Notes under the pieces: model-generated
The model's database searches: none
Told to the model about the DNA's origin: nothing
The model's input: the letters and a program-made list of their open reading frames with translations, nothing else
Assembly (NCBI GenBank): GCA_013360285.1
Contig: JABWCM010000006.1
Location: forward strand, 11,553-75,552
Direction of reading: 5' to 3'
From: Myxococcales bacterium
GTDB lineage: Bacteria > Myxococcota_A > UBA9042 > JABWCM01
Length of the DNA: 64,000 nt
Translations under genes and position numbers: made by a program
Part shown: piece after piece, positions 12,391 to 15,415 of the stretch
Position numbering within the stretch: position 1 is the first letter of the stretch
How the letters are laid out: each line of letters opens with the position of its first letter

Positions 12391-12405
12391 TGCCATTTGA
12401 TGGCA
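12391..12405. promoter_or_regulatory. Perfect palindrome TGCCA-N5-TGGCA, candidate upstream activator site for the operon-encoded RtcR-like enhancer-binding protein
   Basis: tgccatttgatggca read directly, about 77 nt upstream of the -24 element and followed by an AT-rich stretch (tgtaaaacaacatgattacaattcattattgttttcaaaaag), as is typical between an upstream activator site and a sigma-54 promoter. Confidence 0.4.
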
Positions 12406-12480
12406 AAAAAATTCCGAATCATTTTTAGTGATGCGTGTAAAACAACATGATTACAATTCATTATTGTTTTCAAAAAGGAA

Positions 12481-12496
12481 TGGCATGGATGGTGCA
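12481..12496 (+). promoter_or_regulatory. Sigma-54 (-24/-12) promoter candidate: TGGCATG-N4-GTGCA
   Basis: GG at 12482-12483 and GC at 12494-12495 have the canonical GG-N10-GC spacing. It matches consensus TGGCACG-N4-TTGCA at 9 of 11 defined positions. It lies 37 nt upstream of a strong RBS (AGGAG 12523-12527) and ATG 12533. Confidence 0.5.
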
Positions 12497-12532
12497 ATAA
12501 CCTCCCACGCGACCCATGACCCAGGAGAAACC

Positions 12533-15415
12533 ATGGCTGAATTATTTTATCGTTCCTTACCCGGCTTTGGCGGCTGGGAATCCACAATCAAACAGGTTGG
12601 CGCCCAACTGCGCCCCTACTACGATTTTTTGTTCACAGCCAAAAAAGCCGCCGAAGGACGCAAATCGGTTTTGGGTTGGCGAAAAGCCACACCGGACGAG
12701 CACAACGCGTTTCACGACCGGTTCGAAAAGCGGTGGGAGTCCTCGAAATCCGACAAGCCACGGTCCAACAAACGGCGTGATCAACAACAGCGACTCAAAC
12801 CATCCGGTTATTGGATTGTCCTCGAGACTACGCAGTGGCGCCCGGACGAACCCGATGAAACCTTTGACCTGTTTATGGAAACCCCGTCGGTCTACTGTAC
12901 TCCGGAGTGTTTCCCAAACTCCGAAGTCCGGTTTCTGGAGACGGATCGGGAAGGGCGCGCTGTACTGGTCGACCGGCTTCCGGTTGCCTATGAACCAGAG
13001 CCCCAAGAAACCACTTCAGCCCCACCCAACCCGCACCAACCAAGGGGGCAATTGATTTGGCTGCGGCCCAACGTGTATGCCCTCGACTGCCAAATCCGGG
13101 CATTTCGGTCCCTGGACAACACGCCCAATCCCCGGGTAGCACCGTTGGTCCGATTGACATCGACCAAAGCCCAATGGCCGTCGTTTGCTCCCGAAGCTAT
13201 AGCCGAAGACGACTGGTATTTTCTTCGTACCAGTTCCGATGGTCGTTTGCGTGACGGTACCGACGAGCAACGTCGTTTTGTAGAAATCGCTCTTGAAACA
13301 CCCGATTTTGCGATTCTGGAAGGCCCTCCCGGATCCGGAAAAACGACGGCGATTTGTGAACTGATTACACAGGTCACCGAACGGGGCGGTCGGGTCCTGC
13401 TCGTTGCGTCAACCCATGTGGCCGTCGACAACGTGCTGGAGCGGTTGATTGAGTGGCAAGACAAACGCGATGACGAACACAAACCCGTGTTGCCGGTGCG
13501 TATTGGCGACGAAAATCGGGTGACATCGGACATGATTTTACCCTTTACGCTCAAACGCCAAAGTGCGACTTGGCTTTCGGAATTGAAGCATTTTCTCGAC
13601 GATCCGCCGGGCGTTGACCGCGGTTGTGATCGCGCTCGTGAGATTTTTCGATCGGCATTATTCGCAAAAACGGATGGTGAGGTTTCCCCCATTGTCCGAA
13701 TGATTCTTGAATTCTCCAACCTCGTGTGTGGTACGACCATTGGTATCTTACAACATCCCGCTATCAAAGCCGCCCGTCGAGACGGAGCCCCGGTTGAACC
13801 CTTTGACCTGATGATTCTCGACGAAGCCAGTAAAACTACCTTTGGTGAGTTTCTTGTGCCCGCCATGTTCGCTCGGCGGTGGGTAGTGGTGGGTGACGTC
13901 AAACAATTGTCACCCTATGTCGAAGAATCGGAATTGGCGGACAATATTCGTAAATTAGCGCCGCCTGCATTCACCCAAGGAGCGGTTTGTGCCTTTTTGG
14001 CCGCGGCGAAAGGTCATTTGAAAAAAAAGAGCCTGGTGTCGGCTACCCTGGATGATGCTCGGATCATTTATAAGGAAGCCCGCGCACGGCACGTAGACGC
14101 CGTGCTGCTGGATGATGCGGTACCGACCAAGATCTATGGGATTCCCAACGCCATTGTCGAATTGTTATATGCGGATATGGTGGTCGGCACACCTCCATGT
14201 TTACGGCAGTTTGAGCATCGGTTGCCGCAGGATCTGCAACTTTGTAGCGGGTCGGTGCCGGCGTTGTCCGATTGGCAAGCTACCCGGCGCGCCGCGGGCG
14301 TTTTGAACACCGATGACTCGACACATGAAGCGGATTGGGCATCGGAAATCGCTTGGAGACTCGTCCGGTCCTACGAACTTCGCCAAAACATTGCCGAAAA
14401 AAATCGACATCAGCGTGAAATTGAAGAACTATTTCCCAAAACCCTCAACGGGGAATTATTCGCTTCCCGCAACAGAGGTCCTCGAACCGTTCGCGATAAT
14501 GGAACTGAGCGACTCGAGACGGCGAGCGACCTACTGCGCCGCGATTTGGACACCGTTCGCCGTGTCGCCATGCCGTCGATACTCGAACTGTTGCAGGTCG
14601 GGTTTGAGCGCTTACAAGGATGGACCGAAGGTTGTGCGCTCACGGATGGACTGCCGTCCAATGTCCTGAAACAGCGGTTGGTTTCGTTGACCTTTCAGCA
14701 CCGGATGCACCCGGAACTTTCCGCCTTTCCACGGGAGCAGTTTTATCAACCGAGCGACGATCATGGTTCCCAAAACAGTGGGGTCATACAACCAATGTTT
14801 GGTCTCGAATCCCAAGCCAGTCCATCATTGTTGCGAGACGCTGATGGCATGGCGGAGCGACGCCAGTGGACGTATTCCCGATACGCTCGGCGGGCGATGT
14901 GGTTGTCCGTTGAACCCCAAAAACGTTCGGTTGGGGTCAACAACAGTAACTTAGCCGAAGTGAAAACAATTCTGGTTGAACTAAAACACTTTGTGAATTG
15001 GGCAACGACCGTTCCAAAACAGCACGAAGTCGCGATACTTACGTTTTATCGCGGACAGGAGGCGTTGTTTCGGCATCATTTGCAGCGCGAAAGTGGACAA
15101 TTCGGAAACACACGAACCTTTCGATTTGGCAACAAAAACGGCCAAGGCGCCGTCAAGGTAACCTTGTGCACGGTCGACCGGTTCCAGGGTCACGAAGCGG
15201 ATTTGGTGTTTCTGTCGTTTGTCAAAAGTGGGTCCATAGGTTTTTTAAACAGCCCCAACCGGCTCAACGTCGCGTTGACCAGGGCGCGTTATCAGTTGGT
15301 ACTTGTCGGGCACCGCGCGTTTTTTGCCTCGGATCTTTGCCGGTCCCCATTGTTGCAGCAATTGGCACAATCTCATCTTTACGCACAGGACATTCATTGG
15401 GAGGTCACAGAATGA
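12533..15415 (+). CDS. Upf1-like (DNA2/NAM7 family, AAA_11/AAA_12-type) superfamily-1 helicase with roughly 280-aa N-terminal extension and long inter-motif insertion; MkoA-like
   Basis: Walker A ILEGPPGSGKTT. Motif II MILDEASKTT. FQHRMHPELSAFPREQFY (the RMHP signature of the Upf1/DNA2 family). Motif V TVDRFQGHEADLVFLSFV. Motif VI RLNVALTRARYQLVLVG. Start set at ATG 12533 (AGGAG RBS 5 nt upstream); the track start at 12428 would overlap the predicted promoter. Confidence 0.85.
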   Translation: MAELFYRSLPGFGGWESTIKQVGAQLRPYYDFLFTAKKAAEGRKSVLGWRKATPDEHNAFHDRFEKRWESSKSDKPRSNKRRDQQQRLKPSGYWIVLETTQWRPDEPDETFDLFMETPSVYCTPECFPNSEVRFLETDREGRAVLVDRLPVAYEPEPQETTSAPPNPHQPRGQLIWLRPNVYALDCQIRAFRSLDNTPNPRVAPLVRLTSTKAQWPSFAPEAIAEDDWYFLRTSSDGRLRDGTDEQRRFVEIALETPDFAILEGPPGSGKTTAICELITQVTERGGRVLLVASTHVAVDNVLERLIEWQDKRDDEHKPVLPVRIGDENRVTSDMILPFTLKRQSATWLSELKHFLDDPPGVDRGCDRAREIFRSALFAKTDGEVSPIVRMILEFSNLVCGTTIGILQHPAIKAARRDGAPVEPFDLMILDEASKTTFGEFLVPAMFARRWVVVGDVKQLSPYVEESELADNIRKLAPPAFTQGAVCAFLAAAKGHLKKKSLVSATLDDARIIYKEARARHVDAVLLDDAVPTKIYGIPNAIVELLYADMVVGTPPCLRQFEHRLPQDLQLCSGSVPALSDWQATRRAAGVLNTDDSTHEADWASEIAWRLVRSYELRQNIAEKNRHQREIEELFPKTLNGELFASRNRGPRTVRDNGTERLETASDLLRRDLDTVRRVAMPSILELLQVGFERLQGWTEGCALTDGLPSNVLKQRLVSLTFQHRMHPELSAFPREQFYQPSDDHGSQNSGVIQPMFGLESQASPSLLRDADGMAERRQWTYSRYARRAMWLSVEPQKRSVGVNNSNLAEVKTILVELKHFVNWATTVPKQHEVAILTFYRGQEALFRHHLQRESGQFGNTRTFRFGNKNGQGAVKVTLCTVDRFQGHEADLVFLSFVKSGSIGFLNSPNRLNVALTRARYQLVLVGHRAFFASDLCRSPLLQQLAQSHLYAQDIHWEVTE

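What the first reader, a model, noticed from the sequence alone, without database searches (positions are those of the whole stretch)
12391..12535. Sigma-54 promoter with palindromic upstream site immediately ahead of the helicase gene
TGGCATG-gatg-GTGCA (12481-12496) has the invariant GG-N10-GC spacing of sigma-54 promoters and sits 37 nt before AGGAG-N5-ATG (12533). 77 nt further upstream lies a perfect TGCCAtttgaTGGCA palindrome (12391-12405), then an AT-rich stretch with a second imperfect inverted repeat (GTAAAACAA / TTGTTTTCA). This is the classical enhancer / DNA-bending / -24/-12 layout. The only enhancer-binding protein in the operon is the RtcR-like protein, which implies positive autoregulation. 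It also moves the true helicase start downstream of the track ORF start (12428).
Basis: partly seen in the sequence, partly recalled or inferred. Interest (0 to 1): 0.6.

Follow-up and report, generated by a model that had tools for sequence, protein, structure and literature searches.

The report
Sigma-54 promoter driving a defence operon
A classical enhancer-dependent (sigma-54) promoter, with two conserved activator-binding sites about 100 and 80 bases upstream, sits just ahead of a four-gene helicase/nuclease defence-type operon. The last gene of that operon encodes the promoter's own CARF-domain activator, so this is a well-defined example of a known kind of switch, not a new kind.

Summary
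Alone, the -24/-12 match (TGGCATGgatgGTGCA, 12481-12496) is not significant: 27% of shuffled windows contain one as good. Comparative evidence makes it convincing. In 14 of 20 independent homologous loci a GG-N10-GC site lies within 75 nt upstream of the helicase ATG (binomial P about 5e-26). All 12 loci that carry the activator (EBP) gene have a candidate site there. None of the 5 loci without that gene has one.

It is two 16-bp dyads, TGGC-N8-GCCA, fixed at -101±1 and -81±1 from the -24 GG. In the window these are site A (12380-12395) and site B (12401-12416). The palindrome at 12391-12405 is their inner halves. The second inverted repeat is at chance level.

The helicase starts at ATG 12533, as the N-termini of homologues show. 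The promoter heads a translationally coupled operon: MkoA-like helicase, a 388-aa winged-helix protein, a PLD-family protein and a CARF-AAA+-HTH activator. This implies positive autoregulation. I could not check rpoN, transcript 5' ends or DNA binding. The finding is a new member of a known kind.

The parts
12380..12395 (.). UAS dyad A, TGGACCTTTTGTGCCA (form TGGM-N8-KCCA). It starts 102 nt upstream of the first G of the -24 GG.
   Evidence: matches to YGGM-N8-KCCR number 33 in the zones -160..-30 of 22 loci, against 2.4 expected (Poisson P 3e-26). Fourteen of these start at -99..-102. (I2): A and B together form a 35-bp extended palindrome.
12401..12416 (.). UAS dyad B, TGGCAAAAAAATTCCG. It starts 81 nt upstream of the -24 GG. 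Centre-to-centre distance from A is 21 bp, two helical turns.
   Evidence: 12 loci have a dyad starting at -79..-81. A+B is one of only two dyad pairs spaced 19-22 nt apart in the whole 64-kb window.
12391..12405 (.). It consists of the right half-site of A, a 5-nt junction and the left half-site of B.
   Evidence: In other loci the junction is N4 (L024, L036, L038, L039) or the second dyad is missing (L021, L032, L037), whereas the N8 spacing within a dyad is constant.
12417..12480 (.). AT-rich spacer (75% A+T) between the UAS and the promoter. It contains a weak IHF-like patch at about 12449-12466 and the chance-level inverted repeat AAAACAA/TTGTTTT (12439-45 / 12464-70).
   Evidence: the spacer is AT-enriched relative to the locus in 15 of 20 loci, and the inverted repeat is matched in 21% of shuffles; there is only a weakly conserved aTTTCAA...T patch at -32..-18.
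12481..12496 (+). Sigma-54 -24/-12 promoter element TGGCATG-GATG-GTGCA (GG at 12482-83, GC at 12494-95).
   Evidence: best PWM site in the window. A homologous site lies 14-43 nt upstream of the ATG in 14 of 20 other loci (binomial P 5e-26). A candidate is present in 12 of 12 loci with an EBP gene and in 0 of 5 without one.
12506..12508 (+). Predicted transcription start, about 12 nt downstream of the -12 C at 12495. This would give a 5' UTR of about 26 nt.
   Evidence: Inference from the standard sigma-54 promoter geometry. No transcript data were available.
12523..12535 (+). Ribosome-binding site AGGAG (12523-27), 5 nt, then the true helicase start codon ATG (12533-35).
   Evidence: the N-termini of homologues align at this ATG. 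The starts called at GTG 12428 (ORF list) and ATG 12485 (public gene call) lie upstream of or inside the promoter.
12533..15415 (+). SF1 helicase of 960 aa, MkoA-like (AAA_11/AAA_12), with a family-specific N-terminal domain of about 240 aa.
   Evidence: Pfam; PADLOC MkoA 4e-76; 2201 homologues with E <= 1e-20.
15412..16578 (+). Conserved 388-aa protein of unknown function with an N-terminal winged-helix domain. Its start overlaps the helicase stop codon (ATGA).
   Evidence: AlphaFold2 pLDDT 91.8; only a MarR/PadR-like wHTH of about 70 aa is matched; present in all cassettes.
16582..18111 (+). PLD-family (HKD) protein with two PLDc_2 domains, DrmC/MkoB-like. It is the presumed nuclease effector.
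18108..19697 (+). CARF - sigma-54 AAA+ - HTH_8 enhancer-binding protein (PADLOC RtcR_PspF1 type). Its start overlaps the PLD stop codon. Its sigma-54 contact loop reads GAFTDA.
   Evidence: (2e-132, full length).

Best explanation
The region 12380-12532 is the complete control region of a four-gene operon: helicase, 388-aa winged-helix protein, PLD-family protein and CARF-AAA+-HTH activator.

Proposed mechanism:
1. RNA polymerase carrying sigma-54 binds TGGCATG-N4-GTGCA (12481-12496) as a closed complex.
2. Dimers of the operon's own enhancer-binding protein sit on two 16-bp dyads, TGGC-N8-GCCA (12380-12395 and 12401-12416). The dyads are two helical turns apart and centred about 101 and 80 bp upstream of the promoter centre.
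3. When the N-terminal CARF domain senses its signal, the AAA+ domains assemble into a ring. By analogy with RtcR and other CARF proteins, the signal would be an infection- or damage-derived nucleotide or RNA end. Its nature is unknown.
4. The AT-rich spacer loops, and ATP hydrolysis opens the promoter.
5. Transcription starts near 12507 and runs through all four translationally coupled genes.

Because the activator is the last gene, induction is self-amplifying. Basal activator must come from read-through or a weak unrecognised promoter.

Shown here: the sequence elements, their conserved geometry, their co-occurrence with the EBP gene, the gene start and the operon structure. Inferred: sigma-54 dependence in vivo, EBP binding to the dyads, the signal, and the feedback.
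For: Promoter:
- It is the best PWM site in 128 kb of both strands and the only top hit that is intergenic.
- A GG-N10-GC site lies 14-43 nt before the helicase ATG in 14 of 20 non-window loci. The background rate is 1.2e-4 per position, giving binomial P 5e-26.
- It is usually the single best + strand site in loci of 2-20 kb.

Co-occurrence with the EBP gene:
- Twelve of 12 loci with an EBP gene have a candidate site. This includes the distant Halospina version, TGGCACCTTAATTGCT.
- None of 5 loci without an EBP gene has one. These are four archaeal loci and one cassette disrupted by a transposase.

UAS:
- Dyads are enriched 14-fold (33 observed against 2.4 expected, P 3e-26).
- Twenty-six of the 33 fall at -99..-102 or -79..-81 from the GG. 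The window's dyads are at -102 and -81.
- The dyads track the EBP and not the other DNA-binding candidate. Cassettes that keep the 388-aa protein but lack the EBP have no paired dyads. EBPs with a different C-terminal HTH (L002, L028) have a -24/-12 box but no TGGC-N8-GCCA.

Operon and activator:
- Stop and start codons overlap at 15412-15415 and 18108-18111, and there is a 3-nt gap at 16579-81.
- No conserved internal sigma-54 site precedes the EBP gene.
- The EBP matches Sigma54_activat at 1.5e-36, HTH_8 at 3e-13 and PADLOC RtcR_PspF1 CARF_AAA_HTH at 2e-132 over its full length.
- GAFTDA recurs in at least 3 other lineages of the family. It is also the loop of D. vulgaris DVU2106/OrpR, a working sigma-54 activator (PMC4641369, PMC12754779).

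Other points:
- No sigma-70-type promoter and no + strand terminator were detected in 12362-12532.
- No Rfam family matches the region.
- The host is a MAG labelled Myxococcales. Sigma-54 is vital in M. xanthus, which has 53 EBPs (PMC12754779, PMC3162934).
Against: - The match by itself is not significant window-wide: 27% of shuffles contain one as good.
- The PWM weights come from memory.
- rpoN could not be looked for in this MAG.
- There are no transcript data.
- The window's EBP has GAFTDA, whereas 106 of 120 relatives have the canonical GAFTGA. One paper leaves open whether a G-to-D change costs sigma-54 contact (PMC10714721).
- The window's dyads are less perfect than most: TGGA for TGGC in site A, and TCCG for GCCA in site B.
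- Five promoter-bearing or related loci have no strict dyad (L023, L026, L029, L041, L042).
- Binding of the EBP to the dyads is inferred only from co-occurrence.
- A purely autoregulated activator has a start-up problem, and no basal promoter was identified.
Confidence: 0.78

Rival explanations
1. The promoter is a real sigma-54 promoter, but the TGGC-N8-GCCA dyads are read by a different protein and the EBP binds elsewhere or acts from solution. Candidates are the operon's 388-aa winged-helix protein acting as a repressor or co-regulator, or a host factor.
For: The 388-aa protein has a MarR/PadR-like wHTH, and such proteins bind 16-20-bp dyads as dimers. It is present in every cassette. No binding data exist. 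The comparison of HTH sequence with dyad variant rests on very few loci.
Against: Cassettes that keep the 388-aa protein but lack an EBP have no paired dyads (L011, L012, L041; L001 has a single one). The dyads are locked to within ±1 nt of the -24 element, as expected for an enhancer that must face the polymerase. Two dyads two helical turns apart at about -100 and -80 is the standard EBP arrangement, as at psp and glnAp2 (established knowledge).
Confidence: 0.12
2. The control region is ancestral and functional in the family but is inactive or decaying in this particular genome. The cause would be a GAFTDA loop that no longer contacts sigma-54, or a missing rpoN. Expression would then depend on read-through from the upstream co-directional genes.
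For: The window has GAFTDA where 106 of 120 relatives have GAFTGA. The window's dyads deviate from the consensus. No + strand terminator lies between the upstream 156-aa ORF and the operon. L001 shows what decay looks like: TTGCAT..TGCT and no EBP.
Against: The window's -24/-12 box is one of the best in the family at 15.3 bits, which decay would not predict. All four ORFs are intact. GAFTDA recurs independently and is found in the active activator OrpR/DVU2106 (PMC4641369, PMC12754779). The host lineage depends on sigma-54 (PMC12754779).
Confidence: 0.07
3. The match is a chance resemblance. The GG-N10-GC and the palindrome are fortuitous, and the operon is transcribed from an unrecognised sigma-70-type promoter.
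For: About 0.32 sites of this quality are expected per shuffled window. One-mismatch palindromes occur at the chance rate.
Against: Position, strand and geometry are conserved across loci whose proteins are 40-57% identical and whose flanking genes are unrelated (P about 1e-25 for both the promoter and the dyads). The elements co-occur strictly with the EBP gene. No sigma-70-like site was found in the intergenic region.
Confidence: 0.02
4. The motif lies inside coding sequence. On this reading the helicase really starts at GTG 12428 or ATG 12485 (the public gene call), and the -24/-12 match is codon noise.
For: The ORF is open from 12428. An automatic gene caller chose ATG 12485.
Against: Thirty of 32 homologues start at the residue aligned with ATG 12533. 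The few longer annotations do not align with each other upstream of it. Homologues cover exactly residues 36-995 of the long ORF. AGGAG lies 5 nt before 12533.
Confidence: 0.01

Closest known systems
E. coli / Salmonella rtcBA promoter with RtcR (CARF-AAA+-HTH activator)
   Same: The activator has the same three-domain architecture. The promoter is sigma-54 dependent with a UAS, an AT-rich/IHF region and a -24/-12 box. The E. coli box, TGGCACGACGGTTGCA, was seen directly, and the layout is described in PMC9650030. The CARF domain holds the activator off until a signal arrives (PMC7790460, PMC9650030).
   Different: The window's protein is not an RtcR orthologue: it scores 196 bits on the NCBIfam RtcR equivalog, against a cut-off of 650. 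The cargo is a helicase, a wHTH protein and a PLD protein, not RtcB/RtcA. rtcR is transcribed divergently from its own promoter, whereas here the activator is the last gene of the operon it controls. The E. coli upstream region has no TGGC-N8-GCCA dyads.
RtcR-like CARF EBPs next to defence systems (R-M systems, Makarova 2014; CoCoNuT type II/III-A superoperons, Bell 2024)
   Same: These belong to the same protein family as the PADLOC RtcR_PspF1 model. They carry the same prediction: a CARF-gated sigma-54 activator switches on adjacent immunity genes through an upstream activating sequence (PMC4012209, PMC11090510). A small RelE/BrnT-like ORF immediately upstream has been noted for CoCoNuTs. 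The window has a weak DUF4258-like ORF in that position.
   Different: In those systems the EBP gene is usually at the 5' end, and the passages read give no promoter or UAS sequence. Here the cargo is a Mokosh-like helicase/PLD cassette, the EBP is at the 3' end, and the cis-elements are defined with fixed geometry.
glnAp2 / glnA-ntrB-ntrC (NtrC) and pspA / PspF control regions (established knowledge, not tested here)
   Same: Two dyad-symmetric activator sites lie about 80-140 bp upstream of a -24/-12 promoter with a bendable spacer. In glnALG the activator is encoded at the 3' end of the operon it activates, which gives positive autoregulation on top of a weak basal promoter.
   Different: The sensory input differs: CARF here, against phosphorylation for NtrC or PspA binding for PspF. 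The site sequence differs: TGGC-N8-GCCA here, against TGCACC-N5-GGTGCA for NtrC. No basal promoter was identified here.
Mokosh type I (MkoA helicase + MkoB PLD nuclease)
   Same: The helicase core matches PADLOC MkoA (4e-76) and the PLD protein matches MkoB (6e-18) and DrmC (4e-22). Distant relatives occur in Asgard archaea, where Mokosh has been reported (10.1101/2023.09.13.557551).
   Different: The match to MkoA covers only the helicase core. This cassette has a specific N-terminal domain of about 240 aa, an obligatory extra 388-aa wHTH protein, and in bacteria usually a sigma-54 EBP. None of these is part of the described Mokosh.

Membership tests
Sigma-54 (RpoN)-dependent promoter | -24 GG and -12 GC separated by exactly 10 nt, within the TGGCAC-N5-TTGCW consensus | tested here: met
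   TGGCATG-GATG-GTGCA at 12481-12496. It scores 15.3 bits and is the best site in the window.
Sigma-54 (RpoN)-dependent promoter | Element conserved at the same position in orthologous operons | tested here: met
   Present in 14 of 20 other loci within 75 nt of the ATG, P 5e-26. Weaker versions occupy the same spot in L033, L037 and L039.
Sigma-54 (RpoN)-dependent promoter | A cognate enhancer-binding protein with a sigma-54 AAA+ domain and a GAFTGA loop | tested here: inconclusive
   The EBP gene lies in the operon (Sigma54_activat 1.5e-36). Its loop is GAFTDA in the window, whereas 106 of 120 relatives have GAFTGA. GAFTDA occurs in the active activator DVU2106/OrpR (PMC4641369).
Sigma-54 (RpoN)-dependent promoter | rpoN present in the genome | not testable with these tools
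   Only the 64-kb window is held, and rpoN is not in it. The MAG is labelled Myxococcales, a lineage in which sigma-54 is vital (PMC12754779).
Sigma-54 (RpoN)-dependent promoter | Transcript starts about 12 nt downstream of the -12 GC and depends on RpoN and the EBP | not testable with these tools
   No RNA data. The start is predicted at about 12507.
bEBP upstream activating sequence (enhancer) | Dyad-symmetric sites, usually two or more, 80-150 bp upstream and in fixed helical phase with the promoter | tested here: met
   Two TGGC-N8-GCCA dyads at -102 and -81 in the window. Twenty-six of 33 family hits fall at -99..-102 or -79..-81.
bEBP upstream activating sequence (enhancer) | Bound by the HTH domain of the cognate EBP | not testable with these tools
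   The only evidence is indirect: co-occurrence with the EBP gene and with its HTH subtype.
bEBP upstream activating sequence (enhancer) | IHF site or intrinsic bend between the UAS and the promoter | tested here: inconclusive
   The spacer is 75% A+T. No match to WATCAANNNNTTR with one mismatch or fewer exists in the window. A weak aTTTCAA..T patch recurs in some loci.
RtcR (RNA-repair operon activator, NCBIfam NF038308 equivalog) | Scores above the equivalog cut-off and is encoded next to rtcBA | tested here: not met
   The score is 195.8 bits against a cut-off of 650. No rtcA or rtcB lies in the neighbourhood.
RtcR_PspF1-type CARF-AAA+-HTH regulators (PADLOC PDLC01994) | Full-length match covering the CARF, sigma-54 AAA+ and HTH domains | tested here: met
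   E = 2e-132, residues 10-525 matching profile positions 3-467 of 468.
Mokosh type I defence system | MkoA helicase plus MkoB PLD nuclease as adjacent genes | tested here: inconclusive
   MkoA 4e-76, but only the helicase core aligns. MkoB 6e-18, which is weaker than DrmC at 4e-22. There is an extra conserved gene between them. No curated cut-offs exist and no phage-defence assay was done.

The most novel reading that the evidence does not exclude
This Mokosh-like helicase / wHTH / PLD immune cassette is not constitutively expressed. It is kept silent and fired by a self-amplifying, CARF-gated sigma-54 switch whose cis-code is conserved from Myxococcota to Calditrichota and Proteobacteria. 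That code is two TGGC-N8-GCCA dyads locked at about -126 and -106 from the transcription start. The EBP-less archaeal and bacterial versions would then represent the unregulated ancestral core. If so, the switch would be a portable 'inducible immunity' module. At least one viral contig (L053) carries the same dyad / spacer / -24/-12 design upstream of small phage genes. That would suggest phages can plug into, or titrate, the same activator.
Probability: 0.3. Interest if true: 0.6.

Novelty: new member of a known kind. Interest (0 to 1): 0.4.

Why it matters
1. It corrects the gene model. The helicase starts at 12533, not at 12428 or at the publicly called 12485, which lies inside the promoter.
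2. It turns a general literature prediction into a concrete, testable control region. The prediction is that RtcR-like CARF activators switch on neighbouring defence genes through sigma-54. The control region now has base-level coordinates, a consensus binding dyad and fixed geometry across dozens of genomes.
3. It shows a Mokosh-like helicase/PLD cassette that is probably transcriptionally inducible and self-amplifying. This bears on how toxic immune effectors are kept silent.
4. It provides a simple reporter (UAS plus promoter fused to a reporter gene) for finding the unknown ligand of defence-associated RtcR-type CARF domains.

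Tried and rejected
- The genome-contig scan with the full helicase alignment was swamped by generic P-loop patterns. It returned only relatives of 30-38% identity.
- The composite-pattern scan of viral contigs gave 10 hits, about the chance level. Eight looked like random matches, with no EBP or helicase. The other two, L045 and L053, are the same sequence and show the full architecture.
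- An internal sigma-54 promoter for the EBP gene (window 18023-18038, about 10 bits) is not conserved in any other locus. I rejected it.
- An IHF site: no consensus match with one mismatch or fewer exists in the window, and only a weak conserved patch recurs across loci. Left inconclusive.
- The E. coli rtcBA upstream region shows no similar dyads, so the UAS specificity is not shared with true RtcR.
- Rfam found nothing in 11800-12800.
- Covariation between HTH sequence and dyad variant rests on too few loci to claim.
- Searches for 'PLuB' and for Mokosh together with sigma-54 found nothing describing this regulation.

Full report
**1. The observation**

- TGCCAtttgaTGGCA at 12391-12405.
- TGGCATGgatgGTGCA at 12481-12496, with GG at 12482-83 and GC at 12494-95, so exactly ten bases lie between them.
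- AGGAG at 12523-27, then 5 nt, then ATG at 12533. This ATG is in frame with the GTG at 12428 that opens the long ORF.

I scored the whole window on both strands with a sigma-54 position-weight matrix. The weights are from my memory of the Barrios et al. consensus and are therefore approximate.
- The flagged site scores 15.3 bits and is the best of about 128,000 positions. The next-best hits all lie inside ORFs.
- Even so, 27% of 300 dinucleotide-preserving shuffles of the window contain a site at least as good, about 0.32 expected per window.
- The palindrome with one mismatch allowed occurs at the chance rate.

Position and conservation have to carry the argument.

**2. What the promoter sits in front of**

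Pfam, PADLOC and NCBIfam scans define four co-directional genes:
- An SF1 helicase (12533-15415; AAA_11/AAA_12; PADLOC MkoA 4e-76).
- An unannotated 388-aa gene (15412-16578).
- A PLD-family protein with two domains (16582-18111; DrmC/MkoB-like).
- A CARF / sigma-54 AAA+ / HTH_8 enhancer-binding protein (18108-19697). It matches PADLOC 'RtcR_PspF1 CARF_AAA_HTH' at 2e-132 over its full length. It scores only 196 bits on the NCBIfam RtcR equivalog, whose cut-off is 650, so it is RtcR-like but not RtcR.

Stop and start codons overlap at 15412-15415 (ATGA) and at 18108-18111, and only 3 nt separate the second and third genes. This is one translationally coupled unit.

No sigma-70-type promoter and no + strand terminator were detected in the 171-nt intergenic region. 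No Rfam family matches there.

**3. The start codon**

The helicase has more than 2,000 homologues. The best 120 cover 96% of the 995-aa ORF, which is exactly 960/995. In an alignment of 32 of them, 30 begin MA(R/E)L(F/Y)Y aligned with the ATG at 12533. The few longer annotations do not align with one another upstream of that point. The public gene call for the near-identical contig starts at ATG 12485, inside the -24/-12 element.

**4. Conservation of the -24/-12 element**

I collected homologous loci in two ways:
- A metagenome scan using an alignment of the family-specific N-terminal domain.
- Exact-protein look-ups in named genomes: a Sandaracinaceae MAG, Stigmatella, Sorangium, Plesiocystis, a Calditrichota contig and others.

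The four-gene cassette recurs in unrelated neighbourhoods, next to AbiEii, SIR2, DruA and integrases. It behaves like a mobile defence-island module.

- The best PWM site in the 300 nt upstream of the helicase ATG lies 14-43 nt from the ATG in almost every locus. It is usually the single best + strand site in the entire 2-20-kb locus.
- Formally, 14 of 20 non-window loci have a site of at least 9.8 bits within 75 nt of the ATG. The background rate is 1.2e-4 per position, which gives binomial P of about 5e-26.
- Three more loci have weaker versions at the same spot: L033, L037 (TAGCAC...) and L039.

The element follows the activator gene:
- All 12 loci in which an EBP gene is visible have a candidate site. 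This includes the distant Halospina cassette, whose helicase is 36% identical and whose site is TGGCACCTTAATTGCT.
- None of the five cassettes without an EBP has one there. These are four archaeal relatives and one bacterial cassette whose 3' end was replaced by a transposase.
- L001 also lacks an EBP. It carries what looks like a decayed box, TTGCAT...TGCT.

**5. The enhancer**

When the upstream regions are aligned on the -24 GG, 16-mers of the form TGGC-N8-GCCA recur. Counting YGGM-N8-KCCR in the zone -160..-30 gives these results:
- 33 hits in 2,860 nt, against 0.83 per kb elsewhere in the same loci. That is 2.4 expected, Poisson P 3e-26.
- 26 of the 33 start at -99..-102 or at -79..-81 from the first G of the GG.
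- The window has TGGACCTTTTGTGCCA at -102 (12380-12395) and TGGCAAAAAAATTCCG at -81 (12401-12416).

- The N8 spacing within a dyad is constant across loci.
- The junction is N4 in most loci and N5 here.
- Several loci have only one dyad (L021, L032, L037). This identifies the N8 dyad as the unit.
- In the window the two sites together form a 35-bp extended palindrome, 13 of 16 positions complementary.
- A+B is one of only two dyad pairs spaced 19-22 nt apart in the 64 kb.

The positional lock of ±1 nt to the promoter is what a face-of-the-helix looping constraint predicts.

**6. Who reads the dyads?**

The obvious candidate is the EBP's Fis-type HTH. There is a rival. An AlphaFold2 model of the 388-aa protein (pLDDT 91.8) contains a MarR/PadR-like winged helix, and that is its only structural match in the PDB.

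Comparative evidence favours the EBP:
- Cassettes that keep the 388-aa gene but lack an EBP have no paired dyads.
- L002 and L028 have EBPs with a different C-terminal HTH. They have strong -24/-12 boxes but no TGGC-N8-GCCA dyads.
- L042 has the most divergent recognition helix and also lacks a strict dyad.
- L040 has TGGA...TCCA dyads and an altered helix.

This is suggestive but not proof.

**7. The spacer**

The stretch 12417-12480 is 75% A+T in a window that is 46% A+T. The equivalent spacer is AT-enriched in 15 of 20 loci.

It is not conserved.

An IHF-type site is not established. No match to WATCAANNNNTTR with one mismatch or fewer exists in the window. Only a weakly conserved aTTTCAA...T patch lies 18-32 nt upstream of the -24 box in other loci.

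**8. The activator and autoregulation**

The window's EBP reads GAFTDA in the sigma-54 contact loop.
- Among 120 close relatives, 106 have GAFTGA, 6 have GAFSGA and 3 have GAFTDA. L039 also has GAFTDA.
- The variant is rare but recurrent. It is also the loop of D. vulgaris DVU2106/OrpR, an activator with an assigned sigma-54 regulon (PMC4641369, PMC12754779).
- One paper leaves its effect open (PMC10714721).

No conserved sigma-54 site precedes the EBP gene inside the operon. The window's site of about 10 bits at 18023 is unique to the window. The EBP therefore depends on the promoter it activates, as NtrC does in glnA-ntrBC (established knowledge). That is positive feedback, and it needs a basal source of activator. 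Read-through from the co-directional upstream genes is possible because no terminator was found.

**9. rpoN**

Exact look-ups place the window in a MAG labelled 'Myxococcales bacterium' (NUN12264-NUN12277, locus tags HUU55_). The closest cassettes are also from Myxococcota. Sigma-54 is vital in M. xanthus, which has 53 EBPs (PMC12754779, PMC3162934). Presence of rpoN is likely but unverified.

**10. Comparison with what is known**

The layout is the textbook one: two activator dyads, a bendable spacer, a -24/-12 box, and an operon that includes the activator.
- The E. coli rtcBA region has TGGCACGACGGTTGCA but not these dyads.
- Makarova et al. 2014 (PMC4012209) noted RtcR-like CARF-AAA+-HTH proteins that are not linked to rtc and are often next to R-M systems. 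They predicted sigma-54-dependent activation of downstream genes.
- Bell et al. 2024 (PMC11090510) made the same prediction for CoCoNuT superoperons, where the EBP gene is typically at the 5' end. The passages of these two papers that I read give no promoter or UAS sequence.
- Searches combining Mokosh with sigma-54 or enhancer-binding terms found nothing.

The finding is therefore a new, well-defined member of a known kind. It adds three details: the cargo (a Mokosh-like helicase/PLD cassette with an extra wHTH protein), the position of the EBP gene at the 3' end, and an explicit cis-code.

**11. Verdict**

- My confidence that this is a functional, EBP-dependent sigma-54 control region is about 0.78.
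- Interest is moderate at 0.4. The result is useful for annotation and gives a ready-made reporter for finding the ligand of defence-associated RtcR-type CARF domains. It would not surprise a specialist.

Noticed in passing
L053 7587-7745 (= L045, IMGVR_UViG_3300016457_000123, 35.6-kb viral contig, 37% GC): A viral contig carries the same design: TGGCTGAAAACAGCCA gaat TGGCTAAATTTAGCCA, a spacer of about 67 nt, TTGGCATGGAGTATGCT, then AGGAGG and the ATG of a 34-aa ORF followed by small phage-like genes. No EBP gene lies in the 8.9 kb held. The dyads sit 3 nt further from the GG than in the cassette family. This may be a phage promoter that uses, or titrates, the same type of activator.
   Followed up: partly
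window 15412-16578: This conserved 388-aa gene is annotated as hypothetical (HUU55_01340) and has no Pfam, PADLOC or NCBIfam hit. Its AlphaFold2 model is confident (pLDDT 91.8). Only an N-terminal winged-helix domain of about 70 aa (MarR/PadR-like) finds PDB neighbours; the remaining 300 or so residues have no match. The gene is present in every cassette, including the archaeal ones.
   Followed up: partly
window 11891-12361: A 156-aa ORF lies immediately upstream of the UAS on the same strand and has a weak DUF4258 match (E 0.007, below the cut-off). A homologue (28% identity, E 3e-5) sits in the same position upstream of the cassette in L039, the other locus whose EBP has GAFTDA. The CoCoNuT paper (PMC11090510) reports BrnT/RelE-like toxin genes immediately upstream of RtcR-associated systems.
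   Followed up: partly
L019, L020, L033 (metagenome loci), upstream of the helicase ATG: In these loci the -24/-12 box ends only 14-21 nt before the ATG. This implies 5' UTRs of about 2-9 nt, close to leaderless mRNAs, although the dyads are at the usual -100 and -80. Leaderless mRNAs are known in myxobacteria (PMC12754779), but they are unusual for sigma-54 promoters.
   Followed up: no
L004, L009, L011, L012, L015 (Promethearchaeum syntrophicum and other Asgard / Methanobacteriota MAGs): Archaea carry relatives of the helicase at 32-38% identity, some with the 388-aa protein and the PLD protein. They have no EBP and no -24/-12 site. The three-gene core therefore exists independently of the sigma-54 switch.
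   Followed up: partly
L040 11835-13226 (GCA_964267905.1): In this locus the 388-aa protein and the PLD protein appear to be fused and shortened into one 463-aa ORF. The UAS dyads are a TGGA-N8-TCCA variant (TGGAAAAAACTTTCCA / CGGAAAGTTTTTTCCA), shifted to -113 and -92.
   Followed up: no
window 20224-25735: Directly downstream of the cassette, beyond a convergent methyltransferase gene at 19715-20542, lie a Fur-family regulator gene and two tandem full-length catalase-peroxidase (KatG-type) genes of 749 aa each. A superoxide dismutase gene is at 59800-60576. The cassette appears to be inserted next to an oxidative-stress cluster.
   Followed up: no
window 7735-11775: Two genes lie upstream on the same strand. 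One encodes a 721-aa Ser/Thr protein kinase. The other encodes a 484-aa protein whose C-terminus is an ECF-type sigma-70 region 4 with a long N-terminal extension. Plesiocystis (L042) also has a kinase and a sigma-factor gene a few kb upstream of its cassette.
   Followed up: no
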